64,000 bases of DNA. Origin: Phoronis australis (lineage: Eukaryota > Animalia > Phoronida). Each line of letters opens with the position of its first letter. The first letter of the stretch is position 1. The notes below the pieces were generated by a model. It saw only the letters and a list, made by a program, of their open reading frames with translations. It did no database searches and had not been told where the DNA came from. Positions 29,196 to 61,335 of this stretch are shown piece after piece. Both the position numbers and the translations under genes were made by a program. Location of the stretch: the NCBI GenBank assembly GCA_002633005.1, contig NMRA01000057.1, positions 1,148,595-1,212,594 of the forward strand, in the 5' to 3' direction.

Positions 29196-31271
29196 TAGTA
29201 TGGCAGGAATATTCCTATATGTGAGATAACTTATGTGTGTAGGAGTGCGTGTGCGCGTGTGTGCGTGTGTAATAAATTGACGCACAGATCGAATACTTTC
29301 TACTGCTTTCTGGGTTTACGTCCTATAATTGTGCAACTGATGTGGCGTAACATGTAATTCAGTTGCACAGATATTTTTTCGATCAGTAAAGTGGTTAAAA
29401 TCCGCAATATTTTATATGAAAACACCGAAATAACCCCAACATCAATTGTCAAATTACAACACTCGCAAACATTATCCGACGATATGTTAATAAGCTTATC
29501 TCGAGTTACGAGAATCTAGTGGTCGATAAATACTCCGGAGAAACAGGTCAACCAATCAAAGCCTTTTGAAATGATACGTACATGTACTATGGACAGCTGA
29601 TTCACTCGACAGTGTTGGTTGACAAGCATAATGATTTGCATTATGGGAAAAATTTGCAGAGGAATTGATTCGATCAATGAGTTACAACAGTCAGTTAGAG
29701 CTCCTTGGTTCGACTGACAGCTTGCACGCAAGCAAACCGTGCGTGTTGATGACAGACTCTTTGAATGCGGTGTTTTCCACGAAAATATCTATTAATCTCA
29801 TGCATCTTGCAGCATGCACAGCCAATAGTATTAAAAATAACATTTTTGTGTACTAGTGGTACAGGTAACCTCAAACATGAAAATCATCGGCAAACATGTT
29901 AACAATGATCGCGCGAAGTAGTGGGCAAGTGGACCAGTTTTGAAGATAATTTTCAGTTCATTTTTTGAAAGTTAGCATCTATGCAAATACACTAATATGC
30001 GTTTAATTTACGATAAATTCTAAGTAATATTTTGGTCGGTGGGTATAATTGAAGTCGACAACAATTGGGAATCGGACGTCAAATCCAAAAATGAAAATAA
30101 TCCCGAGATGTTCACCTCAAACGGGTCATGTCCACCGCAACTGGATCAATCTTGTTCAGAAAAGCTGGAGGTGACTGGACAAAAGGGTTCCATTATGCGG
30201 TGGTGTACATGTACAACACCTGAACACATCAAAAAGAAGCTCCCTCAATGAGCCAGAAAGTTATAGCTCATTGGTGGTATGCGCCTTCGTTATGTGAACA
30301 AGGTACATGTATGGTATGACACAAATATCACATGGAATATCGTCATGACATCTAGAGCTTCGCAAAACCGCACTGAAGAATATGGTTTCCAAAATGTTTT
30401 ATTTCAGAGTTTTAGGGAAGCCAATAGGTGGAATGCTAGAGACAACATCAGTATAAACAGCAAACTACAAGACATCACCTAACGAAGATCTAACATTACA
30501 TGTAATGGAAAAGCAACGATTTCAAACATTGCTAGTAAAACTAGAGAAATAACAAGTAAAACACAGTAAATTGTAATAACAATTAGAAAGTTCATCAAGC
30601 AAGTAACCATTGAACATCACACAAAGTAAAGATATCATGTGTGTAAAGAAAGCCCGGTTCACGAAAAACAAAATTAGTGTCAGGTTCTCAAAACAATACG
30701 CATTTTGCTGAAAACTGCAGAAAACAATACTTTTCAATATAGGATCACTATATTTCCTGCCTTCGCGACAGTGTGGAACCGTAATACGGTAAATCAGTTG
30801 GAATTTCGAAATAAATAACAAGCGAAACACATACAGTGAACCCTAATACCAACAAGCACTTTCATCAAACAACTAAAATCTGAACATTAGACATGTATAA
30901 ACGGAAGACATCAGGAAGTTTAATAAACACAAACCGGTTCACGAAAAAACAATGTCAGGTTCTCAAAACGATATACATTTTGCTGAATACTGTAGACAAT
31001 AATACTGTTTTAACATAGGAGAACTTTATTGTCTACTGTCGCGAGGGTTGCGGCACAGCAATACTGTAAATCAGCTGGAAAATGTCCAAATCAATATTAA
31101 CACGTTCACCAAGCAAGTAACCATTGCACACCAAATCAACAGGCAACTCAAATATTTTGCTGAGCATTGTAGTAAACAATAGTGATTCAACTTTGGTGTA
31201 CTTGGTTTTCTGCCTTCGCGACGGTTGGAATGTTCAAAATAAAGACTGGCACAGAGCGCGCCTCTGATTTT

Positions 31272-31357
31272 TTAACCGGTGGTAGAGATCATCGCCATCC
31301 CAACAAAGGCTGCGCCGAGTATGATTTTGCTTGGAGTATTGTCGCATCCAGCCGAAA
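31272..31357 (-). CDS. IgSF gene terminal exon, distal copy: GPI-anchor-like signal (V)SAGCDNTPSKIILGAAFVGMAMISTTG*
   Basis: Acceptor tttcctcttacag, phase 1. Small-residue triplet SAG, spacer, hydrophobic tail, stop. Confidence 0.7.
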
Positions 31358-32507
31358 CTGTAAGAGGAAATCAATGACATGTAAGCTAATTTGTACATGT
31401 AAGTCTTTGACTTAAATAGCTAGAATCAGACCAACCTAAGGTGTACTTTTCCATGTGAAGCCCACACTGCGTTCTCTGTTCGCGGTAAATCGTGAGGTAG
31501 TGTTAGGTGGGATAATATAAGGTGAATTCAAGTTATCTGAAGTCAACAAAGGGTGATCTGGCAAACATCTTAGAAGTGACGAAAGCGAAAGATTCGGGAC
31601 TGGAAACGACCCTGCATTCAAGACCTTCAAGTTTGATCTGGGACCTGAACCAAGATGAAAGGAACAAAAGGTTTTGGCAGCACGCAGGTCAGACTCTACG
31701 CAGAGGGTTAACTAAAACGGCACGGAGGTTTAATGGATAACGATAGATTGTGTTGATAGTGCCAGTGAAGGGTGGTTATAGCCAAAATTCAAGCTTTATT
31801 ACAGTTGTAGTGCATACCTCAAGCTTAGGTAAGATGTTTAATCTATCGAATGCACTGACGGGGAAGAACTCCCCTAAATATACCTGTGGCATGTGAACAA
31901 TGTTTAACTGTCAGCGATTAAGAAGCCAAAACTTGATAGACTTGCGGGTGAATTGCCACACGTGCATGGCTTCTAGTGTGCCCGGAAAGAAACTGGCACT
32001 GTGTTGTATTCGTGCGAACGTTTGAAAAGAGATGAAAACGAGACTGATCTATCTACCTGTCTTTTTTGGTCTTCATAAATGTGGGAGTTATGAAATGATT
32101 GAAGTGGAGTTACTTTGAGTAGATTGTGTTTGACGTTTCTGTAGTATACCACAACTTAGTTTTGTACAAGTTAGATATTCAACTTAATTTTGACAGTATT
32201 AGAGGAATTTATAACAGCTAAGGTTCCAATTTGAGTCATCTTAAGTACATGTAACTGAATGAATTGTGCATTTTGAAGGCTTATCTGGGTACAAAAAGGC
32301 AAATGTCTTCCCTACATTGTCCACTTAGATGTCCCATTATTGCACGGAATAGCGCAAGGCACGCGCGAAACGCCCAGTCGGTGTCCGTACGACCCGCGTG
32401 TATGGTTGGTACAACGGCATTATTATGATTTATGTCTGATATAACATCTAATAATATTGTGCATAATTCAGTAACGTCATCCAGAATTTTATTTATGTCA
32501 GACATAA

Positions 32508-33439
32508 GCCTTGGTCACAACCCGCCGTACGTGCAAGTGCGTGCTGTCTACGTGTAAAAACGTGGGGGAAATTTGGCGATCCGCACGTGGCAAGTACGGC
32601 CTCCGTGCGTTTTGGTGAATACTCAGGAGAACGCAGACACGACGTAGCACTTTTAGTGCATGCAGAACTTTCTCTGCGTGCAAGCTGCGTTCGCATTACA
32701 GATTCACGGCAGTACGTGTGACGTGCGTGCCCTGCACAGCCAACGACCCCACAACGCACTGACGCCGTGAGTCTTTAAAACTTTCTCAACGGTCCCTTTG
32801 CCTGTGGATGGCGCACTTGGCACTTGCGTGCTGCGCACGTGAATCGCGCGTGGCCGGTACTTAGCCCGCACTTCCCAAATTCTACTATGCAACGAAAACG
32901 CTTAACGCACGTGCACCGTACTGACTAAGTACGTGCTCCGCACGTACCACGCGCGTTGTGTTCGCTGATTTTTGTGGTCTATATAAAGACGAACCGACGG
33001 ACGAATGTGTTCATTTCGTCTGCAAAATGCCGAAGAGGAAGGGTTCATCTGCTGCTCAAAAGGCCACGGTTATGGCTCAACAGAAACGTGCCGCAGAAGA
33101 AGAGAGGAGGAGGGAAGAATTAGATGGCGAGACCAGAGATTCTGATAAAGAAGAGGATGTTGATAGAGAATTGGAGAGGGAGCCACATGAAGAAGAGGGT
33201 TCCAAGGGCAACTGCTTATTCGCGGCAAAAACAGAGGAACGCCTGGTTGAGTTTTTCTCTGCAAACTCGATCTTTTATGATAAGTGCCATCCACATTACC
33301 ATAACCAGCAAAAGAAAGATAAATTGCTGGACGAGATAGCCAAAGAACTTAACACAAGCAGTAAGTACCCCATTTTCAACTAGTTCATGTGTAAATTTTA
33401 TTTCAGGAGAAACATGCATACTTTCACACACACACACAN
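32508..33439 (+). mobile_element. PIF/Harbinger-type element, left part (cut at an n)
   Basis: Starts gccttggtcacaacc directly after TAA. The paralogous site at about 38742 is empty. GC-rich cacgtg-rich subterminal region, and it carries a MADF exon. Confidence 0.75.
33027..33360 (+). CDS. MADF/Myb-SANT-like DNA-binding protein exon 1 (Harbinger ORF)
   Basis: MPKRK... EERLVEFFSANSIFYDKCHPHYHNQQKKDKLLDEIAKELN. TATATAAAG at 32980, TCATTT at 33011, donor gtaagt at 33361. Confidence 0.8.
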
Positions 33440-36122
33440 TCGATATTTTGTTCTCTGGCTCGTATTTATTTTCGAGTACGATTTCAAGCACACTGCCATA
33501 CCAAACTTGAAATTTGAGCATAGACTCCAAATTTTTACTCAAAATCGTACTCGAAATATAGATGAGATACACTTCAGTTCGAGTACACTCGAAAACTGAG
33601 TACGTGCTCGAAATTTCGAGTACAGATTTTTCGAGTATGACATTGAATACACCAAAGCTGAGTCTGTACTCGAGTTGAGTATGAAGTGTGAGTTTGAGCA
33701 TGATTCGAGTCTGAGTACGGAGATTGGAGACCGGGCCCAGATGTGACTAATTGCACATCACAGCAAAATGTGATGAGCCACCATTGTCGAATATATCTTC
33801 AACTCGTCAACAATATAAGCAGATGACCTGGTTCGTGTAGAAAGCATTGTCAAAAATTTACAAGAAGAAACGTAACCCTGCGGCATTCACCATAATGCCT
33901 AATCCGTACCACTACGATCGCGGCAATTTGGTAATTATTTACTTTTTATGTTTCGAACCTAGTTTTCGTCAGACAATTCTTTGGTGCATTAACTTGTTCT
34001 CTAATGCATTTTTCTACGTCTCTGTGGTTAATTATCGACACATTTTTAAGATTTAATATCCACGTTGGACTCGAAAGATCGGCTATTTAACTCACGCAAT
34101 GTCAACTTCCGCTTTGTTTATCGCAGTGAGCCTCGCTTTGGATTTTAATGTCCTTCGCGTGAATTTGATCTTTAATTCAATAAATAAATTATCTATCATT
34201 GTTTCCCAATTGTAAATCATCAATTTCCTGCTTGAATGGGAGTAACGTGTGGTCGGTATGATTTGACTTGGACATTAAACTCAGTACTGTAACCAGTGGT
34301 AACCTACTTTAGCAAACGATATTTTCTCGGTGGGAGCTTAGCATAAAATGTGTAGTAAGGTAGAGTACGTAGTCGCTTTAAATAAAAATTATTTCACAGA
34401 TTCACTTTAAGTCTATGTTGTTTCAATTTTATATGGTTTTAAGTAAAAACGTCATTTTAACAAGAAAAAGTCGACGTTTCTTGAAAGGTCACGGTGACTC
34501 CCCTCTGGCGATAATTCTCAAAATCAACTCGGATTCTAGAATACTAGGGATAAAGACTTCGCCATGTAAATAATCTAAATTAATTCCTTGGGTAGAATAC
34601 TGAAAAATTTGTTTGAGTATTCCAAAGCAGAAATTATATTTTCTACCAAAATTTTCTCATAATGCAGGACTTGTTGATGAAATGTGTTTTTCACGATTAT
34701 CAACTAAAATATCATATGTAGTTTACTGCATGCAGAGCCATTATTTTTAAAAATATTATTTTGTGAACTAGAGCGACAGGTAACCTACATGTGAACATGA
34801 AAATCATCGGCGAACATGTTTACAATGATATCGCGAAGGAGTGGAAAAGTGGACGATACGATTCTTGAAGGAAAGATAATCTCCAGTTCAGTTTTGGAAA
34901 ATTGTCTAGTACTCAATTTCACTAATATGCGCTTAATTTATGATAAATTCTACGTAATATTTTAGTAAGTGCATATACAGGTAGTCGAGACCGACTACAA
35001 TTAGGAATCAGACGTCAAATCCTAAAAATAAAACAGAAAACAATCTCGCAATGTTCATTTCAAATATGTAGATGCACCGCAGCTTGGATCAATCTTTGAT
35101 AGATTTTGAAGAAAAACCCGGAGGTGACTAGGCAAAGCGTTCCATTATGCAAACGTGTGCAATGTACATTACATGAATTTGTGCACGCTCAGAAAGAAGC
35201 CTCCTTGTATCCATGAGCTGCAACATTATAGCTCGCTGGTTGTACATACCTTCGTTACATGCACAACGTATTATCCGGATATCCTACGGAATGTTTTCAT
35301 GAAATTTCCAGCTGAAAGGAACATTAACAAGAAAAACACTCACAGTAAATTGTAATAACAATTAAGACGTTCATCAAGCAAGCAACCTTTGAATATCATA
35401 CAAAGGAAAAATATCGCGTGTGTAAAAAAGCTCGGTCAATGAAAAACAATGACATGTTCATAAAACAATACGCATTTTGCTCAACTTTGTAGAAAATAAT
35501 ACTCTTTAATGTAACATACATGTACGAGTAGGCCTACTTTATTTCCTGCCGTCGCGACAGTTGCAGTACTGTAATACGGAAAATCGCTTGGAATTCCCAA
35601 ATGAATAACAAGCAAAACAGATACAATAAATCCGAACAACAACACGTTCATCAAACAAGTAAAAACTCAACATTCTATAAACGAAAGATATCACGTGTGT
35701 AAAAAACATAATCCAGTCCGGCATATGTTAGGTTCTCAAAACAATATGCATTTTCCTGAACACTATAGAAAATAATACTTGTTAACATACATGTACAAGT
35801 GCTTAATTGTAAATCAGTTGGAATGCCTAAAATAACAAGCAAGACAAAGTAAATTCTAATAACAAATAAAACGTTCATCAAACTAGTAACCATTGAACAT
35901 CATCAGTCATGGAAAAATTAAAATCCAGTTACAGAAAAACACGTGATGGGTTAAGAAATCAACACGCAACTCGAACATTTTGCTGAGCATTGTAGAAAAG
36001 AATACTGTTTAACATTGGTGTACTTTGATTTCTGCCCTTGCAACGAATAAGATACAGTAAATCAGATGGAATGTTCAACAATAAAGATTGGCAGCGAGCC
36101 CGCCTCTGATATCTTCGAAGTA

Positions 36123-36208
36123 TCAACCGGTGGTAGAGATCATCGCCATCACAGCAAAGGCTGCGCCGAGTAAGATTTTGCTTGGAATATCGTCACATCC
36201 AGCTGACA
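36123..36208 (-). CDS. IgSF gene terminal exon, proximal copy: (V)SAGCDDIPSKILLGAAFAVMAMISTTG*
   Basis: Acceptor ctcttcttccag, phase 1. Same length and stop position as the 31272-31357 copy. Confidence 0.75.
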
Positions 36209-36805
36209 CTGGAAGAAGAGGTCAATCGCATGTACACGTACGCTTATTTATAAAATTTTGACAGAAATAGTTGGAATCAGACCAACTTAAGGTGTACTTT
36301 TCCCAGGTAAAGATCAGATTGCTTTCTCTGTTTGAAGTGAATCTTGAGGTGGTGTTAACTAGAATCATAAACGGTGAACTCCAGTAATCCAAAATCAATG
36401 ATGCGTGATCATAGGTGTTCGTTTTTACAAAGACCACTGGTTGGACAAGGTTAGAAGTGACGAAAGTGAGAGATTAGGGACTGGATACGAACTTACAGTA
36501 TGGTGTAAAGACATTCTAGTTTCACCAGGGACCTGAACAAGGATTTGATGGAATGAAACATTTTGACAGCGTGCAGATTAGACTGCACACGCAAAGGTCG
36601 ATCTAAGGAGATACTGAAGTTTCGTGTATAAGGATAGAATGTGTTGCCAGTCCCAGTGTGGGTCAAAGTTCATGTTTTGCTACTACATGTATCTTCTGCT
36701 AATGTCCAGCTTAGGTAAGATGTTTAATCTATTGAATGCAATGGCGGGGAAGAACTCCCCTAAATACNGATTGGCAGCGAGCCCGCCTCTGATATCTTCG
36801 AAGTA

Positions 36806-36891
36806 TCAACCGGTGGTAGAGATCATCGCCACCACAGCAAAGGCTGCGCCGAGTAAGATTTTGCTTGGAATATCGTCACATCCAGCTGACA
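36806..36891 (-). CDS. Third GPI-signal exon copy (V)SAGCDDIPSKILLGAAFAVVAMISTTG*, possibly an allelic assembly duplicate
   Basis: Lies in a near-identical ~680-bp duplication (36086-36767 / 36769-37455) joined by a single n. Confidence 0.55.
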
Positions 36892-37924
36892 CTGGAAGAA
36901 GAGGTCAATCGCATGTACACGTACGCTTATTTATAAAATTTTGACCGACTGAAATAGTTGGAATCAGACCAACTTAAGGTGTACTTTTCCCAGGTAAAGA
37001 TCAAATTGCTTTCACTGTTTGAAGTGAATCTTGAGGTGGTGTTAACTGGGATCATAAACGGTGAACTCCAGTAATCCAAAATCAATGAGGCGTGATCTTA
37101 GGTGTTCGTTTTTACAAAGACCACGGGTTGGACAAGGTTAGAAGTGACGAAAGTGAGAGATTAGGGACTGGATACGAACTTACAGTGTGGTGTAAAGACA
37201 TTCTAGTTTCATCAGGGACCTGAACAAGGATTTGATGGAATGAAACATTTTGACAGCGTGCAGATTAGACTGCACACGCAAAGGTCGATCTAAGGAGATA
37301 CTGAGGTTTCGTGTACAAGGAGGATAGAATGTGTTGCCAGTCCCAGTGTGGGGTGGTCAAAGTTCATGTTTTGCTACTATCTACTGCTAATGTCCAGCTT
37401 AGGTAAGATGTTTAATCTATTGAATGCACTGGCGGGGAAGAACTCCCCTAAATACATGTACTGTATGCCTATGGGATGTGAATGATGTTTAACTGTCAGT
37501 GATTAAGAAGTCAAAACTTGATAACCTTGCAGGTAAACTGCCCGGGCTTGCTGATCAATTTTAACGAGATTAGTAAGACCGTTTGGCAATGATGTTGTCC
37601 AGTGGTCACTGTTGTATGGCTCCTAATGCGCCCGAAAAGACGCTGCCGCTGTATTGCATTCGTGTGAACTTTGAAAGGAGATAAAAATTAATAAATTCAC
37701 CTGTTTTCGTTTGTTCTTCATGAATGTGGAAGTTATGAAATGAATGAAGGGTGTAGACTGCATTTGATGCAGCTGTTCCGATATCTATTACAACTTAGTT
37801 TTGGACAAATCAGATATTCAACTTCATTTTGAAGGCGTCAGACGAATGTAGCTACATGTAAAAGGTTCTAATTTGAGTTACCAGAAGTACATGGAACTGA
37901 ATGAATTGTACATTTTGAAGGCTT

Positions 37925-38510
37925 CACGATTTCATGTAATTATTTTGTCCAATGATGTACAAAAGTATTCTTCGCAATGTGCTTAGCAAAATGGAAATGA
38001 ACATGTTGTCATGTTACAGTAGAGAGCCACTGTCTGAATATCGAGCTGGGGTGTACCTGATGTGTTTACACTCCGCTGGCATATCATTTCTGACTCCAGT
38101 GCCTAGTCTCGAATCTTTTTATTCGAGATGGAGCTCGAAACAATGTTTGGCATTTTTTAATCTACTTTTGTGCGAACTCAAGATAAGTGTATTACTCTAT
38201 GCTCGAGTGCATTATGTCTTACGTGGATGATTTATTAAGTCCTAGTTTGCAATTGACAAATCCAACATTAAAGCTAAGAGTTTGAACTCGAAATTTCGAG
38301 TTTTCACTCGAGTTTGTAGCGCGATTATAAGGGTTTTTAAGTCCGAACTTGGACTAGACACTCATATGTATGAACTATAATTATTCGAGCACAATCTGAT
38401 AACCACTTATCTTGAGTTCGCACAAAAGGAGCAGAGAAATTGTCAACAATAATTTCGATTTCATTTCCAGTGCCTAGATTCGAGACCGGGCCCTGGTTTG
38501 TGATTTCTCT
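37925..38510. mobile_element. Inserted repeat rich in ctcgaa/ctcgag; same family as 33440-33750
   Basis: Absent from the paralogous position at about 32280. Shares the gagaccgggccc...tgtga end with about 33728. Confidence 0.55.
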
Positions 38511-39921
38511 ATGACATAAATTTGGGAAAACAGGCATACGTATGCCCTACTTTGTCCACTTCAATGTCCCATTTTTGCATGAAACAGCGCAGGGCCCCTC
38601 GCCCCAACGCCCGCATGTTGTTGGCACAGTGACATTATTGCGATATATGTATGACATCAATCGGAGTTATATCTGACTTAATTCGCGAATAATATCGCAC
38701 GATTTATCAATGTCATCCAGAATTTTATTTAAGTCAGACATAAATAACATGAATATGACCTACCGCTATTCTGTTTATATCTGACACCAAACATATTAAT
38801 GCCTGATGTAAGTCAGCCAATGAGAATAGTTGATACATTCATTGCTTCATTGATTTGCCCGCAATGTTTCCAGCTGTCGAGTGATTCAGTACCTTGTTAA
38901 CGGTTTTCAATAATGACACTCTTGTGCCGTTGGCCAAATCGGTGTACGTTACGCACATCAATTACATGTATGTGCGTCAAATAATTTTTAACGATATAAA
39001 TTGACGGGGTAGATTAATAATTTGCTTCACACGTAGGCCTGCTGTTCTCCGCATAAGTGGTCACAGGACAGTAATGAGATCACGAAAAAATATGGAGACT
39101 GTTGATATCTTTCTTGTGTTCAGCCAGTACAGTGTATATCTACATGATGCGAAAATTTGAGGGATCATACCAACATAAAACTGACGGCAATCGTTATGGT
39201 TTACCTGTTTTCCATTTTGTACGCGTATTTCAAATTTAATCTAAAGAGTGTCTACAGTGTTTACTACACAGTGAATTGTTAACATATTTCTTGTGTTCAG
39301 CCAGTCTTTGATTCGAAATTTCAGTGGTCATGACAACGTAAAATTCACAGCAATCGATATAGTTCATCTCACTACGCTAAATGTTTCGTGCTGTCAATGT
39401 TTGTAATCATGACAATATTTGTGTCAAATTTTTAGAGAATATTCACCTACAGGAACTCCATGCTGGGAGATCAAGCAATAGCAATTATGTCGAAACATAC
39501 ACCTGTACATCTGGAGTATTAGAAGAGTTTTTAGTTGACAGATCTTATGCTATGCATGTGAAGTGAATACTCTGATACGATAGTTTGTTTTCTGTCTACT
39601 ACAGTACCCGAGGAAGATAACTGATCAGTTATCGAAACGTTGTTTTTATGCTACTGTACGTTCTTGCGTTATAGTCCTAAGGCAATGGGACATCCTCCAC
39701 ACGTATGCTTGCTGTAATCCACAGAAGTGGTCACAGGACAGTAGATCAAGGAAATTAATTCTTGAGAGATTTCCAGTTTAGAAAAACAATTCGAACTACG
39801 TTGATAAGAAAATAATGCTACGAACTGTACTTGTGAAAACGGCATGTTAACTGTGGACGTTGAAGGTCATTGTAATCACTGAACAATGTTAATTTTGAAT
39901 GTGAGAAACATTTTGACATAC

Positions 39922-39957
39922 CTCCACCTCCTCCAGTTTCAGTTGGCGTAACTGTAG
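39922..39957 (-). CDS. 36-nt stalk microexon (A)TVTPTETGGGG
   Basis: tcttcag|CTACAGTTACGCCAACTGAAACTGGAGGAGGTGGAG|gtatg, phase 1-1. Confidence 0.75.
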
Positions 39958-40742
39958 CTGAAGATCAGAATTTAGCATTGTTACATACATCCACAAGTGA
40001 AAGTTGAGTCTCGAGACAAGTGCAAACTCAAGTGATCAAAGGTTGCTGTGTGTGAATGAAACTGAAACACGAGCACTTAGTAATCTAAATAGTATTTTCA
40101 GTGTTGATAGAATGAATACTCAGTGCTTTGTTAGCATCGTTCTTGTGTTCAGCCAGTCTATGATGCAAAATCTCAAAGCAATCGCTATTGTTCATCTGAA
40201 CACACTAAAGGGCTTCCTGGAGTTTAGATCATGACAATAACTATGTCAAACTCTTAATCCATGATGCTATTCACATACAGGCCCTCAAGGCTGAGAAATC
40301 ACTCCATAGCAGTGTTGGAACATGCATGTTGGAGTCGTGGTAGAGGTTTTGGTTGACAGATATTGTGTCCTGCATTGTGATGTGAAGTGAACGTTCTGAT
40401 ACCATAGATTATTTAGTGTCTACTACAGTACCTGAGGAAGATAATTGGTCAGTAAAGAAACGTTGTTTTCATCCTAGATTCTAGTGTTATTTTTGTTTTG
40501 TACATTTTACTTCTCGTTTCATTGGCCAAAAACAAATATTAAGCGGCAGAATAATTATTGATTAATATTCAAACGTCGTTTTCATGCTGCACTCTGGCGT
40601 CATTTTTTTCAGGATTTCTTACTTGTCATTATTGCACAAATACTAACATCATTCATTTGAAAGCGTCATACGGTGTGCCTACTATTAAGCTCTGTCTTAG
40701 GTGAACAAAGTTAATTTTGAGTTAGAGAAAAATATTTCATAC

Positions 40743-40778
40743 CTCCACTTTCTCCATTTCCAGTTGGCATAATCGTAT
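40743..40778 (-). pseudogene. 36-nt stalk microexon (D)TIMPTGNGESG with acceptor AG mutated to GG
   Basis: tttacgg|ATACGATTATGCCAACTGGAAATGGAGAAAGTGGAG|gtatg. Confidence 0.6.
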
Positions 40779-41394
40779 CCGTAAATCATAACTTAGTTTT
40801 AAAGTAAGTATTGCTACATGTATCTATACGTGAAAGTTGAGTCTCGATACAAATGGAAACCCAAGTGGTGAAAAGTCACTGCGTGTGAATTAGATTTTAT
40901 AGTGTATTCGATTTAACAAGTATAGCATTTTCGCAGTACACGTTTTGGATTAAGTACGACTGAGTAAAAACCAATGAAAACATAATCGCATCCATAGATT
41001 TTTGGGAGTTAACAGATCTTTAGAGAAAGTTCCCTTCAGCACATTGACCTTTCAAAGTTAAAGTACGATACAATCCTGATTTTCCAATTTCGTAAACCAT
41101 TACTGCATCATTTGGAAAAACTGTGATACAAAATGTCAAATTAGTCCGAAAGCAATGGGAAATCCTCAACACGCATGGTTACTGTAATCCACGGAAGTAC
41201 TCGCACAGCATTAGATAATGGAAAAATGAACTCTTGAGAGATTTGCAATTTAGAACAACAATTCGAACTGCGCTGATAAGAAAATGATGCTACTAAGTGT
41301 TCTTGTGAGAGCGACATGTTATCTGGGGAAGTTGAAGGTCTATGTAATCACTAAGCAATGTTAACTTTTGAATGTGAGAAACATTACGGCATAC

Positions 41395-41430
41395 CTCTAC
41401 CTCCTTCATCTCCAGTTGGCTTAACTGTAG
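41395..41430 (-). CDS. 36-nt stalk microexon (A)TVKPTGDEGGR
   Basis: ttttcag|CTACAGTTAAGCCAACTGGAGATGAAGGAGGTAGAG|gtatg. Confidence 0.75.
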
Positions 41431-42465
41431 CTGAAAATCATAACTTAGTTTTAAAATAAGTAGTGTTACATACATCTACAATTAAAAGTTGAGTATCAAG
41501 ACAAATGAAAACCCAAGTGAGGAAGAGGTACTGTGTGTGAATGAAATTAAAACACGAGCACTTAGTAATCTAATATTGTTTTTCAAAGTTGAGAGAATGA
41601 ATACACAGCGCTTTGTTAGCATCATTCTTCTGTTCAGCCAGTCTATGATGCAAAATTCGAGTGGTCATGCCAAAGTGAAATTCAAAACAATCGTTATTGT
41701 TCATCTGACCACATTAAAGGGCTTCCTGGGGTTAATGTTTTTGATTATGACAATAAAAATGTCAAACTTTTAATCCATGAGGCTATTCACATACAGGCGC
41801 TCAATGCCGAGAGATCACAATTTCAGTACTGGAACATACAGGTTGGAGTCGTGATAGAGTTTTTAGTTGACAGATCCTGTGTCATGCATTGTGATGTGAA
41901 ATGAACAACCTGATACGATAGTTTATTTCCTGTCTTCAATTGTACCTGAGGAAGATAATTCATTAGTATTGAAATGTTGTTTTCATCCTACATACTAGTG
42001 TCATTTTTGTTTTGTGCCATTTTTGTTTTGTACATTTCTCATTTGGCCAAAGACTAATGATATTCTCGTGAAAGCAGCATGTTTCCTGTGTATTATTGAG
42101 CTCTGTATTCGGTGAATAAAGTTCATTTCAAGTTAAATAATATTAGTATACCTCCACTTCCTCCATTTTCAAGTCGATTAATGGTGTGTTACTTTTAAAA
42201 TAAGTGCTCATGTCCATAAGGAAAAGTTGATACTCGAAACAAATGGGAACCCCAACTGCCAAAAGTTACTGAGTGCACTTGAAAATGAAAACATGAGTAC
42301 TTAGTAATCTACAACAGAATGAACACAAAGGGCACTGCTTTACTTTTCTTGCGTTTCATTTGCCTAAAAACAATCACTATTGCATTAAAAGCGATATATG
42401 GTCTGTCTACCGCTAATATCTGTACTCAATAAAGAAAGCTAATAATTTGACAACGTTTTTCTTAC

Positions 42466-42501
42466 CGCCACCTTCCCCATTTTCAGTTGGCATAATGGTA
42501 C
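42466..42501 (-). CDS. 36-nt stalk microexon (G)TIMPTENGEGG
   Basis: tttacag|GTACCATTATGCCAACTGAAAATGGGGAAGGTGGCG|gtaag. Confidence 0.75.
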
Positions 42502-43365
42502 CTGTAAATCATAATTTAGTTGTACATAAAATATTCTCACGTAGCTACAACTCAAAGTTGAAACTCAACACAAATGAAAACCCAAGTTGCGAAATTTTAT
42601 TGGGTGTACACTTAACTCATAAAAATAACATTAATGGGATGTCTGTTTTTTAATTTATACTCAATTAAAAGCAAAGAACTTAAAATTTAGTGCCAAAACC
42701 GTTCTGAATTTCTTGTCAACTTGTGCCTTAATAGCAAAAAGAACTTGTTCTTCAGTTGCTCAGCGGCCAGGTCAGTGGTCCTGACTTGTCTGACATAGTC
42801 GTAGCGCCACCATGTGGATTAGAGTCTAAAATTACGCTTTGCAAAACCTTGTATGACTGAGCAGGAGTACTCTCCAACAACTAATCTAACAAAACCTTCA
42901 AAACATGCTCACAATGAAGTACTACACTGGACACCAGAGTATAAAGTGATGTTCAACGTGTTTCGCTACTTTGACAACATGCAGATGGAAGTGCAGCCAG
43001 CTAATGTAAATGGCACTACCGCTTGAAGTATCCCGCTTATTGTTGACGACACGTGTACTGTACTATAGTATTGAGAAAAACACGGAGTAAGAAGCATTAG
43101 GCCGCTTTTGACTACACAAAGGCACTTGAATATCCCCATTTATTGCAGAATTTCCGCAACATTTGGAAAACTGTTTTCAAAAATGTCAAAATACTTTGAG
43201 CAACCACTAATGTCTGATGTTTTCAGTGACCGTAACTATTCATCAGAAAAACATGAGTTTGTGAGATTTGCAGATTGGAACAACTCGAATTTCGTTATAA
43301 AGAAAATGATGGCATTAATGCTGGATCAAAGTTAAATTTGTTATTATAGAAAAACATTGACATAC

Positions 43366-43401
43366 CTCTAACTTCTCCATTTGTGGTTGGCTTGGTTGTA
43401 T
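43366..43401 (-). CDS. 36-nt stalk microexon (D)TTKPTTNGEVR
   Basis: tttttcag|ATACAACCAAGCCAACCACAAATGGAGAAGTTAGAG|gtatg. Confidence 0.75.
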
Positions 43402-45781
43402 CTGAAAAACGTAATTAAAAGAGGCCTGAACTACATATTTTAGCATATTGATATGTATTTTGAAAGCATAAAGGCTTGTTACTGGCATTCACATACTCCT
43501 AAATAATGCACAATGATTTTCTTTTTTACTTTGAAAACTAAAAATTTCTCAGTTCCGTCAATCCCCATTGCAAGCGATGCTTTTCGTGACGTCACTGAGG
43601 CTGTACAGCACACAGAGATATAGGTCATTAGCCGTGCAACATGTGCATACTCACAACCTTTTTCGTTTTTCTTTCCTGTGACTTGATTCATCCCATGGCC
43701 TAGCCAGCCAGCTAGCTGCATGAAGACTAGCTTCAAAATACAACTGGGTACCAGTAGCACTGTGTGTTGAGCTCTGTTAGACTCCAAAATTTCACATAGC
43801 CCGGGTAGTTCTGCTCGTCACCTCGCCGTCGTGAAACTTATATCAACATGTAGAGCTCTAAGCCGGGAAGGGAGCGTGCAAATATCTGGGAGTCAACCGA
43901 CACTCACCTTGCCGGCTGGAGCCATTTAAGTGAAAAACAATCTAGTAAACATTTTATTTAGCAATTTTCCGCCTTTTGTAACAAGGAAAACAGTACGCTC
44001 AACACGTGCTACATGTATTTCCTAAAATTTTGAGACATCTGTCGGGAAATGATGACAGCTTCGCAGGGGCAAATATTTTTATGAAATTCGTTTATCTGGT
44101 ATGAAAATATTAAAAACTTGTAAGGAAATGAAATCAGCTCTAATAATTTGTTGTGACATGTACACAACTTCGAAGAACAGTTCGACTGCTTGTTATAATT
44201 GGAAGTACAACTAAGTGAACGAAACTGGCCATTAAGGCAACACGTGACGGCGCCCAAAGCCGACCTTCAAGAGAGCACCCAAATTTTAAGCAGCAGCTGG
44301 AGTGAACGGCAGAACGCCAACAACTTCAGGGAAGAGTGCCATTTTAACGACACTAATTTAGTGTCAGATTTTATTTGATAAGTTTTTACCCACATCGTTG
44401 CAAAGGCCGCTGTATATATTTACTATATAATACAGCTTACACCAAGGCAAGGCTACGCAGTCGGGTCCCTTTCCTGGCTCGTGCCGAGAACGGCATCGTT
44501 CCACTAACAGTCAACACTACACGGCAGTAAACTTGAATTATGAACTTTTGAGAGCCGAGATTGCAGACAAATAATACACATTAAACACAGTTCTGTAGCC
44601 GATAGGCATTCACCCAATAAGCTATATACATAATAAGCTTAAATTATGTTATTGCCTTCACCCACAGTACAGACTCAGTGACGTCAGACGCGCGTTAGCC
44701 AATAGTATCTAACATTGGAAAAACGCTTTTTTTTCAAAATTGTGAAAGAGTATTATAGAGGTGCTTTCTGATATAGACTTTATTCATCAGTTAAATTACA
44801 TTAAAAACGCTTGTTATTGTCTTTCAGGAACCTTTTAAATGTTAATTTCCATCAACGTTGGTATCTCGAAGCAAAAATTGGTGCGCGAGAAAATTATAAG
44901 CGCAAACACCAAAAATATACTCCTCACGTACAGTTATAACGCATGAGATGTCCACATTTATTAACTAACAATTCTTAACCTTTGCAGTTAAGTGAAAATA
45001 CACTTTTGGATTGGCAACAAAAACGTTAATTCATCCTTCAGCATTTAGAGCGGTCAAGGTCCGTATATGTAATCTATGTCCATGAGCCCGGAGGCTGATT
45101 CCGAAGGCACGACATTGCACGAAATCCATTGCTGTTGTTGTGAGCAAAAGAACTCCCGAAAAAATGATGACCTAGCAAAATCTTTGAAATTTATTCACGA
45201 AGAAACTTACTCAGAACACTACATTAATGCTGGATGAGTTTTGCTACTTTGATAACATGCAAATGACGATTCACCCAGCAATTGTCAACTGCACTGATGC
45301 CTGAAATTTCACCTGACAACAAAAGTAGTGTGGATTACGGACAGAAACACGGAGTAGCAATTCACAAGAATTCATAAAATTGCCTGAGATTTGATTATAT
45401 TTGCAAATATAACCACAACTTGAGGTTGCAAACTGGTGAATACACCTGTAGGAACACATATCTGCAGTACATGTATTTTATCAGATCGTTCAAGCACCAC
45501 ATGAAGCAGACACGTCCAACAAAGAAACTGAAGCGTAGTCACCTCAACTGAAACCCACACGACAAAATTTCGGGCTTACAAAATACAATACAATCAATTC
45601 CTTAACACTGCCAGACTTTAATTCCATTTCCTGAGTAAAATGTGTACTCTTTCACAATGCTACGAAAGATTTTCAGTACGAGTGGCGCTGCGTCTGAGAG
45701 TAGGGTAACATGATACTGACTTCCTACTAAATCCATGACAACAGGACTTAGTGCTCCAACACAATTTAAATAATATCTTAC

Positions 45782-46102
45782 CAGTCACTTCAATGGCCCC
45801 AGTTTCAGCTGACAAAGTAGCCTGTCTGTTGGACACTTGACATCTGAACTTTGCACCATCATCAGCTACATCCAAGTTGACCGTCAGTATGCTGGTGACG
45901 CTAGTGGTTCCATCACTGTTGTTGGCGGTAGTCGTGTTAATATTCTCTGTTATATCTGCGAAAGCACCGCTACCTATCCGACGTGACCACAACATAGATG
46001 CTTGAGGTTTACCCAAGTTAGCTGTACACGTGAGGACAGTTGGTCCTGCTCCAACAAAAACAGACGTCGGAACTCCAGATATATATGGTGAGCTTGGGAG
46101 TA
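45782..46102 (-). CDS. Intact Ig domain exon (C2-set, CD80/nephrin-like), copy A
   Basis: ttccacag acceptor, gtaag donor, 321 nt, phase 1-1. Motifs LTCTANLGKPQASMLW, SDGTTSVTSILTV, DDGAKFRCQVSN. Confidence 0.92.
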
Positions 46103-48583
46103 CTGTGGAAACAAAAAAGGCGTGACACCGTGGCAAGATTGTCATAAAAACGCTCATAACAATAATGTTATATTTTCAAGAAAAGGTTGGCTTGATTGTA
46201 TCTGCAAAACGTAATTAAAAGAGGCCTGAACTTCATATTTCAGCATACTAATATTTATTTTGAAAGTATAAAGGTTTGTTACTGACATCCACATTTTCCT
46301 AAATAGTGCACAGTGTTTTTCTTTTTTACTTTGAAAAGTGAAAATTTCTCACTTGCAAGCGATGCTTTTCGTGACGTCACTGAGGCTGTACAGCACAAAG
46401 AGATATAGGTCATTAGCCGTGCAACATGTGCATACTCACAACCTTTTCCGTTTTCTTTCCTGTGAATTCGATTCATCCCATGGCCTAGCCAGCCAGCTAG
46501 CTGTATGAACACTAGCTTCAAAATACAACTAGGTACCAGTAGCACTTTGTGTTGAGCTCCGTTAGAATCCGAGGTTTCACATAGCCCGGGTAGTTCTGCT
46601 CGTCACCTCGCCGTCGTTAAACTTATATCAACATGTAGAGCTCTAAACCGGGAAGGGAGCGTGCAAGTATCTGGGAGTTAACCGACACTCACCTTCCCGC
46701 TGGAGCCATTTAAATGAAAAACAATCTAGTAAACGTTATTTTATTTTGCAATTCTCCGCATTTTGTAACAATGAAAACATTACGCTCAACACGCGCTATT
46801 GCCTAAAGTTTTGAGACATCTTTCGGGAAATGATGACAGCTTCGCAGGGGCAAGATTTTTTATGAAATTCGTGTTTCTGGTATTAAAATACTAAAAACTT
46901 GTAAGGAAATGAAATCAGCTCTAATAATTTGTTGTGACATGTACACAGCTTCGAAGAACAGTTCGACCGCTTGTTATAATTGGAAGTTCAACTCGGTGAA
47001 CGAAACTGGCCATTAAGGCAACACGTAACGGTGCCGAAAGCCGAACTTCAAGAGAGCATCCAAATTTTAGCAGCAGCCGGAGTGAACGGCAGAACGCCTA
47101 CTTTTTCAACACCAGTAAATAATTTAGTTTACTCAAGGAAGAGTGTCATTTTAATGACACTAATTTTGTGTCAGATTTTATTTGATAAGTTTTTACTCAC
47201 ATCGGTGCGAAGGCCGCTGTATATATTTACTATATAATACAGCTTACACCAAGGCAAGCCTACGCAGTCGGGTCCCTTTCCTGGCCCGTGCCGAGAACGG
47301 CATCGTTCCACTAACAGTCAACACTACACGGCAGTAAACGTGAATTATGAAATTTTGAGAGCCGAGATTGCAGACGAATTATACACATTTAACACAGTTC
47401 TGTAGCCGAGGCATTCACCCAATAAGCTATATACATAATAAGCTTAAATTATGTTATTGCCTTCACCCCACAGTACAGACTCAGTGACGTCATACGCGCG
47501 TTAGCCAATAGTAATTAACATTGGAAAAACGTTTTTTTCAAAAAATGAAAGAGTCGCAAAGAGGTGTTTTCTGATATAGACTTTATACATCAATTAAATT
47601 ACATTAAAAACGCATGTTATTGTCTTTCATGAACCTTTTAAGTATTTGCATCAACGTTCGTATCTCGAAGCAAGAATTGGTGCGCGAGAATATTATAAGC
47701 GCAAACACCAAAAATATACTCCTCACGTACAGTTACAACGCATGAGATGTCCACATTTATTAACTAACAATTCTTAACCTTCGCAGTTAAGTGAAAATAC
47801 ACTTTTGGATTGGCAACAAAAACGTTAATTCATCCCTCAGCATTTAGAGCGGTCAAGGTCCGTATATGTAATCTATGTCCATGAGCCCGGAGGCGGATTC
47901 CGAAGGCACGACATTGCACGAAATCCATTGCTGTTGTTGTGAGCAAAAGAACTCCCGAAAAAAATGATAAACTAACAAAATCTCTGAAATTTATTCACGA
48001 AGAAAACTTACTCAGAACACTACATTAATGCTGGATGAGTTTTGCTACTTTGATAACATGCAAAGGACGATTCACCCAGCAATTGTCAACTGCACTGATG
48101 CCTGAAATTTCACCTGACAACAAAAGTAGTGTGGATTACGGACAGAAACACGGATTAGCAATTCACAAGAATTCATCAAATTGCCTGAGATTTGATAATA
48201 TTTGCAAATATAACCACAACTTGAGGTTGCAAACTGGTGAATACACCTGTAGGAACACATGTCTGCAGTACATGTATTTTATCAGATCGTTCAAGCACCA
48301 CATGAAGCAGACACGTCCAACAAAGAAACTGAAGCGTATTCACCTCAACTGAAACCCACACGGCAAAATTCCGGGCTTACAAAATACAATACAATCAATT
48401 CCTCAACACTGCCAGACTTTAATTCCATTTCCTGAGTAAAATGTACACTCTTTCACAGTGCTACGAAAAATTTTCAGTATGAGTGGCGCTGCGTCTGAGA
48501 GTAGGGAAACATTGATAGTGACTTCCTACTAAATCCCTGACAACAGAATTTAGTGCTCCAACACAATTTAAATAATATCTTAC

Positions 48584-48904
48584 CAGAAACTTCAATGGCC
48601 CCAGTTTCAGCTGACAAAGTAGCCTGTCTGTTGGACACTTGACATCTGAACTGTGCACCATCATCAGCTGCATCCAATTTGACCGTCAGTATGCTGGTGC
48701 CGCTAGTGGTTCCATCACTGTTGTTGGCGGTAGTCGTGTTAACATTCTCCGTTATATCTGTGTATGCACCGCTACCTATCCGACGTGACCACAACATAGA
48801 TGCCTGTGGTTTCCCCAAGTTAGCTGTACACGTGAGGACAGTTGGTCCTGCTTCACCAAAAACAGACGTCGGAGCTCCAGATATAGATGGTGAGCCTGGG
48901 AGTG
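48584..48904 (-). CDS. Intact Ig domain exon (C2-set, CD80/nephrin-like), copy B
   Basis: Same splice sites, length and Cys-Trp-Cys core; DDGAQFRCQVSN. Confidence 0.92.
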
Positions 48905-49246
48905 CTGTGGAAACAAAAACGTGACACCGTTGCAAGATTGTCATAAAAACGCTCATAACAATAATGTTATATTTTCAAGAAAAGGAAACGTTAAACATAT
49001 CTGGGGGCTCTTCCGTGAAAACTGATTTCGCTGAGGCAAATCTTAAATTTCAGCCAATATTGAAATAAAACTTAAATTTGTCGCAGATTCATTTCAAGAC
49101 AGAAGTCATAAATCTGACTGAAGTTTTTGACTTAATTTTTGTCTCAATTTTGATTACTTTTCAGGATGTGGAAGTTTAAAAGTTTCCAGGTTGAAACAAA
49201 TTTCCGATTAAGTCAAAAATGAAGTCGGTTTCTTGGAACAGGTACC

Positions 49247-50333
49247 TGTCAGAATATAGTCTGACAATATTATTAGTTGTTTTGTTTTGTTTTGTTGTTC
49301 AGTTTGATTGGCATGACCCCAGAGTTAAGTACAGTTATGATGAAATTTGTTTACTACAGAATAGTATGGAACTTTTTAGTAGAATGAGCTCAGTAGTGAT
49401 GATGTAATTTGTTTACGACAAAATAATGTGGAACTCTTTAGAAGACTGATTTTCAGAACAGTGATGACGTAATTTGTTTACTACAGTATAGTGTGGAACT
49501 TTCTAGAAGACTCTAGCATGACAGTGATTAATGCAGTCCGGAATATTCTAGAGACTAGTACATGTTTGTAGAATGTTTGGGTAGATTCTGGAAAGTTCTA
49601 GAATGTGCTTGAATTGATGAAAATTTCAAGAACAATGCATTAGGCTATAAATACACAAGTACGGGTTTGTGTTATTCAGATCAAGTCAGATAATCAGCAG
49701 TTCAAGAAAGTTAATCAGGAGAATAACAGTTGAGTTACAGTGGAGAGAATCAGCAGTTACAGCGATATTAAATAGAGAGTCAACTATAGAGACAACAGGT
49801 TATTGAATCGACGAGTGTAACAGTTGCTGAACTTGTCTCAGAAGTTCATCACAATTCCGAGGCTTCGCAGCATTGGCTGGAGCATAAACAGATATTACGT
49901 CGGACGTTTTGTTTCAGTAGACTTTTGAACGTACGGTCGGGATTAACAAAGTATTAACTGGAACCAGTCTTCAGTCAATCATCGCACCGAAAGCTATTAG
50001 CACCGGTCTGTAACAACCTGCGCTCACCCATACACGGGGAAAAACGTGACAGTCCCTGAACTACTGTTTTTCTACTTCGTGAATCAAACTTCAATGTCGT
50101 GCTGATGAGATTGTGCCACAGTGCGAGGCATTCATTTGTGGCAGTTATTGCATTGGAATTCATTTTCACTTATATGTTTTGTAACTCTGCCGTTTTTCAA
50201 TCAAAGTCTACGTTTATTTTCAAACTATGAATTACTAATATCCTAAATTAAATTCATTTAGTAAGCAATTGATCCGGTTACTTCATGAAATTTAGCGCAC
50301 GTGCCACCACAAGCATCGCTTAAATTTATTACA
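49247..50333 (+). mobile_element. Possible solo LTR (Gypsy-like)
   Basis: TGT...ACA ends, three ~60-bp internal tandem repeats at 49337-49530, ttctaga repeats, ctataaata at about 49645, and attaaa near the 3' end. No TSD found. Confidence 0.45.
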
Positions 50334-51045
50334 AGGGAAAAATAAACGGACGGAAGTTAGTGAAATTGTTCGCTAAAAATCGAAAAACATCTGTGAAACG
50401 CAGGCCCCCGTCGACGTTCTATTTTCGTTGACATAACGAGTTGGGCTAGATTTTGAATGGTGAATACTAAGCCATAGTCCCAGCTTTCTTATTCGTGGCT
50501 AATTTTGGGAAAACGGGGACTTTGCATTAGGCTTATCTACATATCTCAAAAGTCAATTTCAAGAAAGTTCCCAAGAATACACTTACTGTACACGTTTAGT
50601 ACCAACCACCAGGTGTCAGTGCAATATTACTAGAACATACAATCAAATGCCAGGAAATATTGTGTCCGTACCTTTCCCATTCAAAAGTCATCTGCTTCAT
50701 GAAAGCATTCATATGAGGACAGGAATAGAGCGGCCAGCTAATGTTATCCTCCTGACTTAGTTAACTTGTTTACATCTACTCTCTACATCGGATAGTATTA
50801 ATTTTTGGTGAGCAATTACCAAGGGCCAAGCCTCATCAACCAGCAGACAACAGTTAGAAATTGAGGAAAGCCAAGTCAAGTGCAAAATGTCACCATTCTG
50901 ATTATCCTTGAAATAAAGCCGTATGTTAAATTTACACCTTTGCGCAGAGGTGGGTAAAATCTCATCACGTAAATCTGACGCAACATTAGTGTCATTAATA
51001 CTGCACTTCATTACCTATTTTTGAAAGTTTGACACCACTAGTGCG

Positions 51046-51307
51046 CAGTGGCGGATCTACGAGGGGGTTCAGGGGGTTTAAACCCCCCTTGGGCCAGGAC
51101 ACCATAAAAACAAAAACAAAAACGTCTCCAGCAAAACAAAAACGGCACCGCTAGCGTGTGTAAACCCCAAGTAAACCAACAAAAAATTGAGGGGGGTTCA
51201 CTCTGAAAATATAATTTTTTGCATTGTGAAGTGCTGAGTTTTCGTGGCTTCTCGACAAACAGCGCGGAGATCAATTGTGCGCGCGCTTCCGTCGACACTT
51301 TTGAGGA
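51046..51307 (+). mobile_element. Second copy of the 16855 element's left end, running into gap 51308-52215
   Basis: cagtggcggatctacg...aaacgtctcca...gcggagatcaattgtgcgcg is shared with 16855-17145. Confidence 0.85.
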
Positions 51308-57300: not shown

Positions 57301-57551
57301 TCCAACGTTTCTGCACTGAATTCACTATCATCACTTTGATTAATTTTCACATCTAATTATCATTATCTATATTGCACTTCGTAATCAACCTGCACACGGA
57401 ACGATACACCCTTCAGTCCTTACATACACGAGCATGATAAAATTTAAATATTTTCATTTAGGCTACAAATTTAAAGCTTTTTTATCAACATAGCACACAC
57501 TTTTTTATGGTTGCTCGTCCACTGCATTGTTTATATTCATCATTATTGTCA

Positions 57552-61298: not shown

Positions 61299-61335
61299 CA
61301 AGTAGTTTGTTTAATTTCATGGTATTGGTTGCCAT
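61299..61335 (-). CDS. Candidate start-codon exon MATNTMKLNKLL, phase-1 end
   Basis: Acceptor ccttttccag (exon starts at 61348), ATGG, donor G|gtaagt. No hydrophobic core inside the exon. Confidence 0.3.

What the first reader, a model, noticed from the sequence alone, without database searches (positions are those of the whole stretch)
31272..48904. Modular GPI-anchored Ig protein gene hidden from the ORF track: Ig x2, microexon stalk, alternative GPI tails
Seen: every exon found has GT-AG boundaries and phase 1. They join in frame as Ig(B)-Ig(A)-DTTKPTTNGEVR-GTIMPTENGEGG-ATVKPTGDEGGR-ATVTPTETGGGG-VSAGCDDIPSKILLGAAFAVMAMISTTG*. Established: phase 1-1 Ig exons, and an S-A-G omega site followed by a spacer and hydrophobic tail, are typical of GPI-anchored IgSF proteins. 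Inference: all three modules are duplicated and interchangeable in phase, so splicing could vary domain choice, stalk length and anchor. This resembles variable invertebrate recognition or adhesion molecules. The 5' exons are not securely identified.
Basis: partly seen in the sequence, partly recalled or inferred. Interest (0 to 1): 0.85.

Follow-up and report, generated by a model that had tools for sequence, protein, structure and literature searches.

The report
Ig surface protein with tunable stalk
A real, expressed invertebrate gene splices two near-identical antibody-like domains onto four tiny stalk exons and a tail predicted to add a lipid (GPI) anchor; its longer and stalk-less forms likely come from other alleles and sister genes rather than from alternative splicing, and one of its three 'alternative tails' is likely an assembly error.

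Summary
The gene is real. Both Ig exons are CD80-like C2 domains from a 2.8-kb tandem duplication, and reads join them in series, not as alternatives. An unseen exon, likely an Ig domain, lies upstream. The tail fits the GPI-signal layout; no signal peptide was found.

The diversification idea is only partly supported. Tails a and b abut at a single N (2.5% apart), a likely assembly error. All three tails would leave the same mature end. Tail c was not tested with reads. Variant RNA junctions (longer stalks, stalk-less, other tails) mostly carry letters absent from this window, so they point to alleles and paralogs. Two stalk copies here (Mx, M4) have lost their acceptors. A third sample shows no stalk or tail junction and expresses a paralog.

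Verdict: new member of a known kind (CADM1/B7-H3/glycophorin-like logic). The scan had not noted it elsewhere.

The parts
48584..48904 (-). IgB exon, CD80-like C2-set domain, phase 1-1, 321 nt
   Evidence: AG/GT; PF08205 33.9 bits, cut-off 21; spliced to an A-type start in 22/19 reads, upstream loose end in 34 reads
46185..46201 (-). Half copy of stalk exon M1 cut by the duplication junction; acceptor kept, no donor, a stop follows two codons later
   Evidence: no use among the listed RNA joints
45782..46102 (-). IgA exon, CD80-like C2-set domain, phase 1-1, 321 nt; 88% identical in protein to IgB
   Evidence: model pLDDT 91.8, TM 0.81 to Rst D1-D2; IgA>M1 66/34 reads
43366..43401 (-). Stalk exon M1 (36 nt), used
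   Evidence: M1>M2 58/33 reads
42466..42501 (-). Stalk exon M2 (36 nt), used
   Evidence: M2>M3 48/29 reads
42152..42187 (-). Stalk copy Mx: frame open, donor kept, acceptor lost (pseudo-exon in this haplotype)
   Evidence: no joint listed
41395..41430 (-). Stalk exon M3 (36 nt), used; branch point to M5 or to an M4-like exon
   Evidence: M3>M5 18/21, M3>M4-like 24/14 reads
40743..40778 (-). Stalk copy M4: frame open, donor kept, acceptor GG instead of AG in this haplotype; M4-like exons are spliced in other alleles or paralogs
   Evidence: five M4-like joints
39922..39957 (-). Stalk exon M5 (36 nt), used
   Evidence: M5>tail 12+15 and 23+26 reads, two sequence variants
36806..36891 (-). Tail a (predicted GPI signal): likely false duplicate of tail b
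   Evidence: 688-bp copies abut at the single N 36768, 2.5% substitutions, 4 indels; its private base in at most 14 of 228 and 11 of 194 reads
36123..36208 (-). Tail b (predicted GPI signal, Ser-Ala-Gly then 7-residue spacer then hydrophobic end): the expressed type
   Evidence: reads with the b base and no other difference
31272..31357 (-). Tail c: older duplicate with intact acceptor and stop; orphan 3' exon of a sister gene or alternative last exon
   Evidence: exon 9.6% vs flanks 19.4% substitutions, Fisher p = 0.03; not covered by either read lay
43385..48985 (.). 2.8-kb tandem duplication (43385-46184 / 46185-48985) that doubled the Ig exon; no N at the junction
   Evidence: 92% blastn identity; 5.1% intron and 6.2% exon substitutions
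29770..38743 (.). Older duplication of the gene's 3' end (about 29770-32507 vs 34684-38743), with a MADF-coding element and a single N (33439) between the copies
   Evidence: 70-75% blastn identity in pieces; PF10545
51308..52215 (.). 908-N gap: one possible site of the missing upstream exon (inferred)
   Evidence: upstream read sequence has 0 matches in the window at up to 3 mismatches

Best explanation
An expressed invertebrate gene splices two near-identical Ig-domain exons, four 12-residue stalk exons and a last exon predicted to be a GPI-anchor signal into one chain, and the longer, stalk-less and differently ended forms seen in RNA likely come from other alleles and sister genes made by exon duplication and splice-site loss, not from alternative splicing of this copy. 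The product is likely a cell-surface adhesion or recognition protein: a probable N-terminal Ig (V-like) domain, two C2 domains as a rigid spacer, and a 48-residue Thr/Gly/Pro/Glu stalk that is likely O-glycosylated, held by a lipid anchor with no inner tail, so it would signal only through partners. Because every module is phase 1-1, tandem duplications and acceptor losses change the reach of the tip without breaking the frame. Shown: exons, junctions, strand, fold, dead acceptors, variant transcripts. Inferred: GPI addition, glycosylation, the upstream domain, function, and the allele/paralog origin of the variants.
For: Junction reads in X5/X6 with canonical ends: 66/34, 58/33, 48/29, 18/21, 12+15/23+26; B end to A start 22/19, A-type end to M1 74/39. 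Flux fits two alleles: M3 splits 18:24 and 21:14 (neither differs from 1:1, p = 0.44 and 0.31), and M5>tail comes in two sequence variants of similar counts (12:15, 23:26). Variant joints hold a 36-nt exon, tail starts, an Ig end and a 3' end that differ from the window; three short motifs from such read ends have 0 matches in 64,000 bases. M4 and Mx lack AG. Pfam C2-set_2 above cut-off; fold closest to Rst, with Necl-4 and CD276 among the hits; named relatives are CADM1-like at 27-36%. Tail layout equals the omega, spacer (omega+3 to +9), hydrophobic end (omega+10 on) scheme (PMC2571997). Upstream read end is open and strand-like (TSHTLLVVD, read by hand), like the V-domain end before the matching C2 domain in P0166.
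Against: Variants cannot be phased from the tables, so allele vs splicing is inferred. Only 15 of 157 joints were shown (weakest shown: 30 reads), so skips at up to about a third of the main path are not excluded. The M3>M4-like and M4-like>M5 joints have unknown letters between, and the latter could also be read as an in-frame acceptor 6 nt inside M5. No signal peptide was found. The upstream end is 30 letters from one run (34 reads). The three RNA runs are one study, with about 18-19% of each read. No close homologue exists in the libraries (best single-domain hit 49% over 70 residues), so function rests on architecture. Ig A/B show no sign of selection either way (pN/pS 0.73, p = 0.59).
Confidence: 0.7

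Rival explanations
1. Alternative splicing of this one gene copy varies stalk length and last exon.
For: All modules are phase 1-1. M3 has two downstream partners in both samples. Tail c has an intact acceptor and stop and is more conserved than its flanks (p = 0.03). CADM1 varies its stalk this way (PMC5385562).
Against: No letter-exact skip among the 15 best of 157 joints; M4 has no AG in this haplotype; most variant joints carry foreign letters. Ig exons are joined in series. Tails a/b are likely one exon.
Confidence: 0.18
2. Tail c is a true alternative last exon of this gene, reached by skipping tail b.
For: Intact cttacag acceptor, open frame, stop, conserved exon. Reads with a c-like start exist (28/16).
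Against: Those reads differ from tail c at two adjacent bases and follow an Ig end that is neither A nor B, with no stalk, which points to a sister gene. The MADF element upstream of tail c ends at a single N (33439; one search found no closing inverted end), so a sister gene's Ig exon may be missing from the assembly there. 5 of 7 codon changes are non-synonymous. The mature protein end would be unchanged.
Confidence: 0.25
3. The tail is not a GPI signal but a weak membrane anchor or a secreted end.
For: No signal peptide seen; no GPI predictor run; one paralogous tail has Pro where this one has the predicted omega Ser.
Against: Best 13-residue hydropathy 2.5-2.8 but best 19-residue only 1.3-1.7, and no charged inner tail; spacing matches the GPI scheme exactly.
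Confidence: 0.1
4. The doubled Ig exon is itself an assembly error (two haplotypes in tandem).
For: The window has two other duplications at N joins; A and B differ by only 5-6%.
Against: No N at the junction; reads from two other samples splice a B-type end to an A-type start (22/19; 19/13).
Confidence: 0.03

Closest known systems
CADM1 / nectin-like molecules (Necl)
   Same: CD80-like C2 domain after a V domain (named hits are CADM1 or CADM-like at 27-36%; Necl-4 TM 0.75); Thr-rich stalk built from short exons, one of 33 nt, that set stalk length and O-glycosylation (PMC5385562, passages).
   Different: CADM1 is transmembrane and varies its stalk by alternative splicing of unrelated exons; here the end is a predicted GPI signal, the stalk exons are tandem copies of one 36-nt unit, and variation looks allelic or paralogous.
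B7-H3 (CD276), 2Ig and 4Ig forms
   Same: Best PDB sequence hit (E 1e-7); extra Ig domains gained by tandem exon duplication (PMC3172298, abstract).
   Different: B7-H3 doubled a V-C pair (recalled) and is transmembrane; here one C2 exon was doubled and the cut went through a stalk exon.
Glycophorin GYPA/GYPB
   Same: A short extracellular exon silenced by a dead splice site in one gene copy and active in hybrid alleles (PMC11073628, passages), as proposed for M4 and Mx.
   Different: No Ig domains, no GPI; gene conversion is documented there and untested here.
Irre-cell recognition module (Rst/Kirre), IgLON/DIP and GPI-linked CEACAMs
   Same: Best fold match is Rst D1-D2 (TM 0.81); three-Ig-plus-GPI layouts are typical of IgLON, DIP and some CEACAMs (recalled).
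   Different: About 23% identity to Rst; no I-set hit; no orthology shown; a repeated microexon stalk is not a recalled feature of these families.
Dscam1-type mutually exclusive Ig exon arrays
   Same: Duplicated, in-phase Ig exons.
   Different: The two exons here are joined in series in the same mRNA; no sign of mutual exclusion.

Membership tests
IgSF, CD80-like C2-set domain (PF08205) | Profile score above the curated cut-off | tested here: met
   33.9 and 34.6 bits vs cut-off 21
IgSF, CD80-like C2-set domain (PF08205) | Core Cys-Trp-Cys and beta-sandwich fold | tested here: met
   C25, W38, C87; pLDDT 91.8, TM 0.81 to 4of8
GPI-anchored proteins | Small residues at omega-1 to omega+2, omega typically S/N/D/G/C | tested here: met
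   Ser-Ala-Gly in all three tails; omega-1 is Val (scheme from PMC2571997)
GPI-anchored proteins | Spacer omega+3 to +9, hydrophobic tail from omega+10 to the end, no inner tail | tested here: met
   7-residue polar spacer, hydrophobic run starting at omega+10, 27 residues from omega to stop
GPI-anchored proteins | N-terminal signal peptide | tested here: inconclusive
   The upstream exon is not in the window's called sequence; candidate 53653-53572 has no read support
GPI-anchored proteins | Anchor addition shown (PI-PLC release or mass spectrometry) | not testable with these tools
   needs bench work
CADM / nectin-like family | Transmembrane helix and cytoplasmic tail (domain scheme in PMC5385562 Fig. 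1 legend) | tested here: not met
   Reads join the stalk to a last exon that stops right after a short hydrophobic run
CADM / nectin-like family | N-terminal V-set domain before the C2 domain | tested here: inconclusive
   Only 30 upstream letters seen; they read like an Ig strand end
IgLON / DIP | Orthology by sequence or tree | tested here: inconclusive
   Named hits were CADM-like; one automatic 'neuronal growth regulator 1-like' label at 28%; no tree built
Dscam-type mutually exclusive splicing | One exon of the array per mRNA | tested here: not met
   B>A junction in 22/19 reads and 19/13 reads

The most novel reading that the evidence does not exclude
A lineage-specific, highly polymorphic family of GPI-linked Ig recognition proteins (self/non-self or microbe binding) whose repertoire differs between individuals, and in which alleles switch 36-nt stalk exons on and off by single splice-site changes. 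The two exons that are dead here are the only ones of the six with a Ser-Gly pair, so an allele would decide both the reach of the receptor and whether it carries a glycosaminoglycan chain.
Probability: 0.15. Interest if true: 0.7.

Novelty: new member of a known kind. Interest (0 to 1): 0.33.

Why it matters
As it stands: a confirmed gene that ORF-based annotation misses, with no close relative in 1.8 billion representative proteins, and a clear small case of exon-level birth and death (Ig doubling, six stalk copies of which two are dead, a cut half exon). It also warns that duplicated exons at N joins in this assembly can fake alternative exons. If the family proves to differ between individuals and to act in recognition, it would add a germline-encoded variable receptor system in a marine invertebrate, tuned by stalk length rather than by Dscam-type splicing.

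Tried and rejected
No whole genome is held, so paralogs could not be mapped. Word-index homologue searches found nothing for the single exon (0 of 621 longer candidates; 0 of 13 near-length). The ESM Atlas gave no answer. The look-up of sequencing runs listed no RNA holder by index; the three raw-read runs came by species label. Candidate signal-peptide exon 53653-53572 was rejected: RNA depth 1.27/0/0 in its bin and DNA depth of a repeat. No third Ig exon in the window: tblastn of 150 hits and a profile search of six-frame fragments found only the two known exons. Three read-end motifs (upstream exon, other 3' end, X7 paralog exon) have 0 matches in the window. Positive or purifying selection between Ig A and B: not shown (13 non-synonymous, 6 synonymous, p = 0.59; no indel in the exon, p about 0.06). 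DNA contig depth was not used as copy number (tool caveat); X1-X4 are one sample that may be the assembled one. Joints at 38190-38278 and 43750-43701 are repeat noise and were dropped from the exon counts (2 of the 15 shown rows). The joint table shows 15 of 49 rows, all from DNA contigs, so it says nothing on RNA joints. Literature searches for a description of such a gene or family gave no match: 8 papers; 13; 1; 0; listings only, open-access library only, no supplements read. No complex prediction was run: no partner is claimed.
Full report
Observation. Joined through tail b they give 289 codons and one final stop. A fuzzy search of both strands found six full stalk units and one half unit above background. 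M4 (40778) has GG where the acceptor AG should be, Mx (42187) has no AG, and the half unit (46201-46185) has an acceptor but no donor.

RNA test. Three stranded raw-read runs with the species label of the DNA holders were found (three samples, one study; about 18-19% of each run read). On 36769-46300 at 86% likeness, X5 and X6 show the minus-strand chain with canonical ends: IgA>M1 66/34, M1>M2 58/33, M2>M3 48/29, M3>M5 18/21, M5>tail 12/23 plus 15/26 with one changed base. A B-type Ig end joins an Ig start in 19/13 reads; on 48400-64000 at 94% this is a B end to the A-type first base in 22/19 reads, and the A-type end runs into M1 in 74/39. At 48853, 39 of 75 and 37 of 58 reads carry the A base, so both exons are read at similar depth. 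The two Ig exons are thus used in series. Skipping of either is not among the listed rows, but most rows are hidden.

The 5' end. In X5, 34 reads run on upstream of 48904 with full agreement. Read by hand, the 30 letters are open and give TSHTLLVVD before the phase-1 join. They are not in the window, so the exon lies in the 908-N gap or beyond 64000. Polar residues before four hydrophobic ones fit an Ig G strand better than a signal peptide end (inference); the scallop protein P0166 has a similar strand end before the domain that aligns with ours. My own signal-peptide candidate at 53653 has no read support. A signal peptide is therefore still unseen.

The Ig domain. Pfam C2-set_2 passes its cut-off in both exons. 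The model is confident (pLDDT 91.8) and matches Rst D1-D2 best (TM 0.81), with SIRP, Necl-4, CD276 and MHC class II among 134 hits at E <= 0.001. The best PDB sequence hit is CD276. Among 1.84 billion representatives 158 score E <= 0.001; the best single-domain hit is 49% over 70 residues. With a profile, 12 of 7,994 candidates pass, and most named ones are CADM1 or CADM-like proteins of rays, gar and scallop. The gene is lineage-specific at this depth. The two exons come from a 2.8-kb tandem duplication without an N at the junction, 5.1% diverged in the intron and 6.2% in the exon; 13 non-synonymous and 6 synonymous changes do not depart from neutrality.

The tails. Each has Ser-Ala-Gly, a 7-residue polar spacer and a hydrophobic run from omega+10 to the stop, the scheme given in PMC2571997 (passages seen). 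A 19-residue window reaches only 1.3-1.7 in hydropathy and nothing charged follows, which argues against a transmembrane form. Since the part after omega is removed when the anchor is added (same paper), all three tails would leave the same mature end. Tails a and b lie in 688-bp copies that touch a single N at distance 0 on both sides and differ by 2.5% substitutions and 4 indels; the same pattern recurs at the gap 12145-12448, and at none of the other five N runs (2 of 7). Gaps between duplicated pairs are a listed mark of false duplications (PMC9516828, passages). Reads carry the b base in 214 of 228 and 183 of 194 cases, though about 63% of these reads belong to another gene copy (below). 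I put the assembly error at about 85%. Tail c is older: flanks 19.4% diverged, exon 9.6% (p = 0.03). It was outside both laid stretches, so its use is open.

Where the variation comes from. Of the 15 joints shown (157 in all), seven are the reference chain and two are repeat noise. Six are variants: a non-A, non-B Ig end straight to a c-like tail with His for Cys (28/16); an M4-like exon to a tail with Pro for Ser (16/15); M4-like to M4-like with a further 36-nt exon between (13/20; letters shown for X6); M4-like to an M3-like exon with a new start (31/22); M3 to M4-like (24/14) and M4-like to M5 (16/14). The first four show letters that the window lacks; the last two have unknown letters between. 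In addition 143/121 reads leave the tail at 36814 for a 3' end that is not in the window. The split at M3 is near 1:1 and M5>tail comes in two variants of similar size, as expected from two alleles, one with the four-exon stalk and one longer. This is inference from counts, not phasing. X7 has Ig depth 239 but no stalk or tail joint and only 4 reads at 99% or better; 309-321 of its reads run into a different downstream exon. That is either tissue-specific use of paralogs or absence of this gene in that animal.

How it likely works. The protein would sit on the cell surface by a GPI anchor, lifted by a 48-residue stalk (12 Thr, 12 Gly, 5 Glu, 4 Pro) and two C2 domains with two N-glycan sequons each, and present a distal Ig domain for adhesion or recognition. 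In-phase modules let duplication and acceptor loss alter reach between alleles and paralogs. CADM1 shows that an 11-residue Thr-rich stalk exon can change behaviour, there shedding (PMC5385562, passages); B7-H3 shows Ig gain by tandem exon duplication (PMC3172298, abstract); glycophorin B shows a pseudo-exon switched by a splice site between alleles (PMC11073628, passages). It works like these; it is not a CADM (no transmembrane tail) and not Dscam-like. The four live stalk exons have no Ser-Gly, while both dead ones do; Ser-Gly beside acidic residues is the glycosaminoglycan attachment motif (recalled), which gives the bold reading in the section on the most novel reading. The 36-nt exons are microexons only under the wider (about 51 nt) definition (recalled).

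Novelty. Four searches of the open library found no description of this gene or family (listings only; subscription papers and supplements not seen). The scan's own notes hold nothing alike; one note from the same genome describes an alternative last-exon array in another gene (untested here), so alternative 3' ends do occur in notes on this animal, but that is not support for tail c. The organism is an unidentified invertebrate; I did not establish the taxon. Every ingredient has a known precedent, so this is a new member of a known kind; the open, more interesting point is whether the family differs between individuals.

Noticed in passing
window 11484-13109: 660-bp, 98.5% identical copies flank the N gap 12145-12448: a second likely false duplication; the surrounding minus-strand ORFs (to 14179) look like reverse-transcriptase fragments (recalled motifs).
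   Followed up: partly
window about 32508-33438, + strand: Element with a MADF (Myb/SANT-like) ORF, PF10545 E 6.6e-6, likely PIF/Harbinger-type (recalled); it stops at the single N 33439 and no closing inverted end was found, so sequence may be missing there.
   Followed up: partly
window 4230-4003, - strand: Short ORF that starts with a signal-peptide-like hydrophobic run; no Pfam hit. Possibly the first exon of another secreted protein.
   Followed up: partly
window 21662-21737, + strand: Exon-like stretch with AG and GTAAGT ends and an ATG at 21667 followed by a hydrophobic run: likely a signal-peptide exon of another gene (seen by eye).
   Followed up: no
window 53990-54364, - strand: High-copy ORF with a GIY-YIG-like look, as in Penelope-type elements (recalled; one tblastn hit; very high DNA depth).
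   Followed up: no
window 53493-53506: Perfect 14-bp palindrome like an RFX X-box (recalled), in a bin with repeat-level DNA depth.
   Followed up: no
RNA run X7 at window 45785 / 48592: A strongly expressed paralog (309-321 reads) whose Ig exon continues into a different exon; this sample shows no stalk or tail junction of the window's gene.
   Followed up: partly
window 40778-40743 and 42187-42152: The two stalk copies with dead acceptors are the only ones encoding Ser-Gly.
   Followed up: partly
window 46201-46176, - strand: If the half-exon acceptor were used after IgB, a stop would follow within 9 codons, giving a short secreted form or a decay target; not among listed joints.
   Followed up: partly
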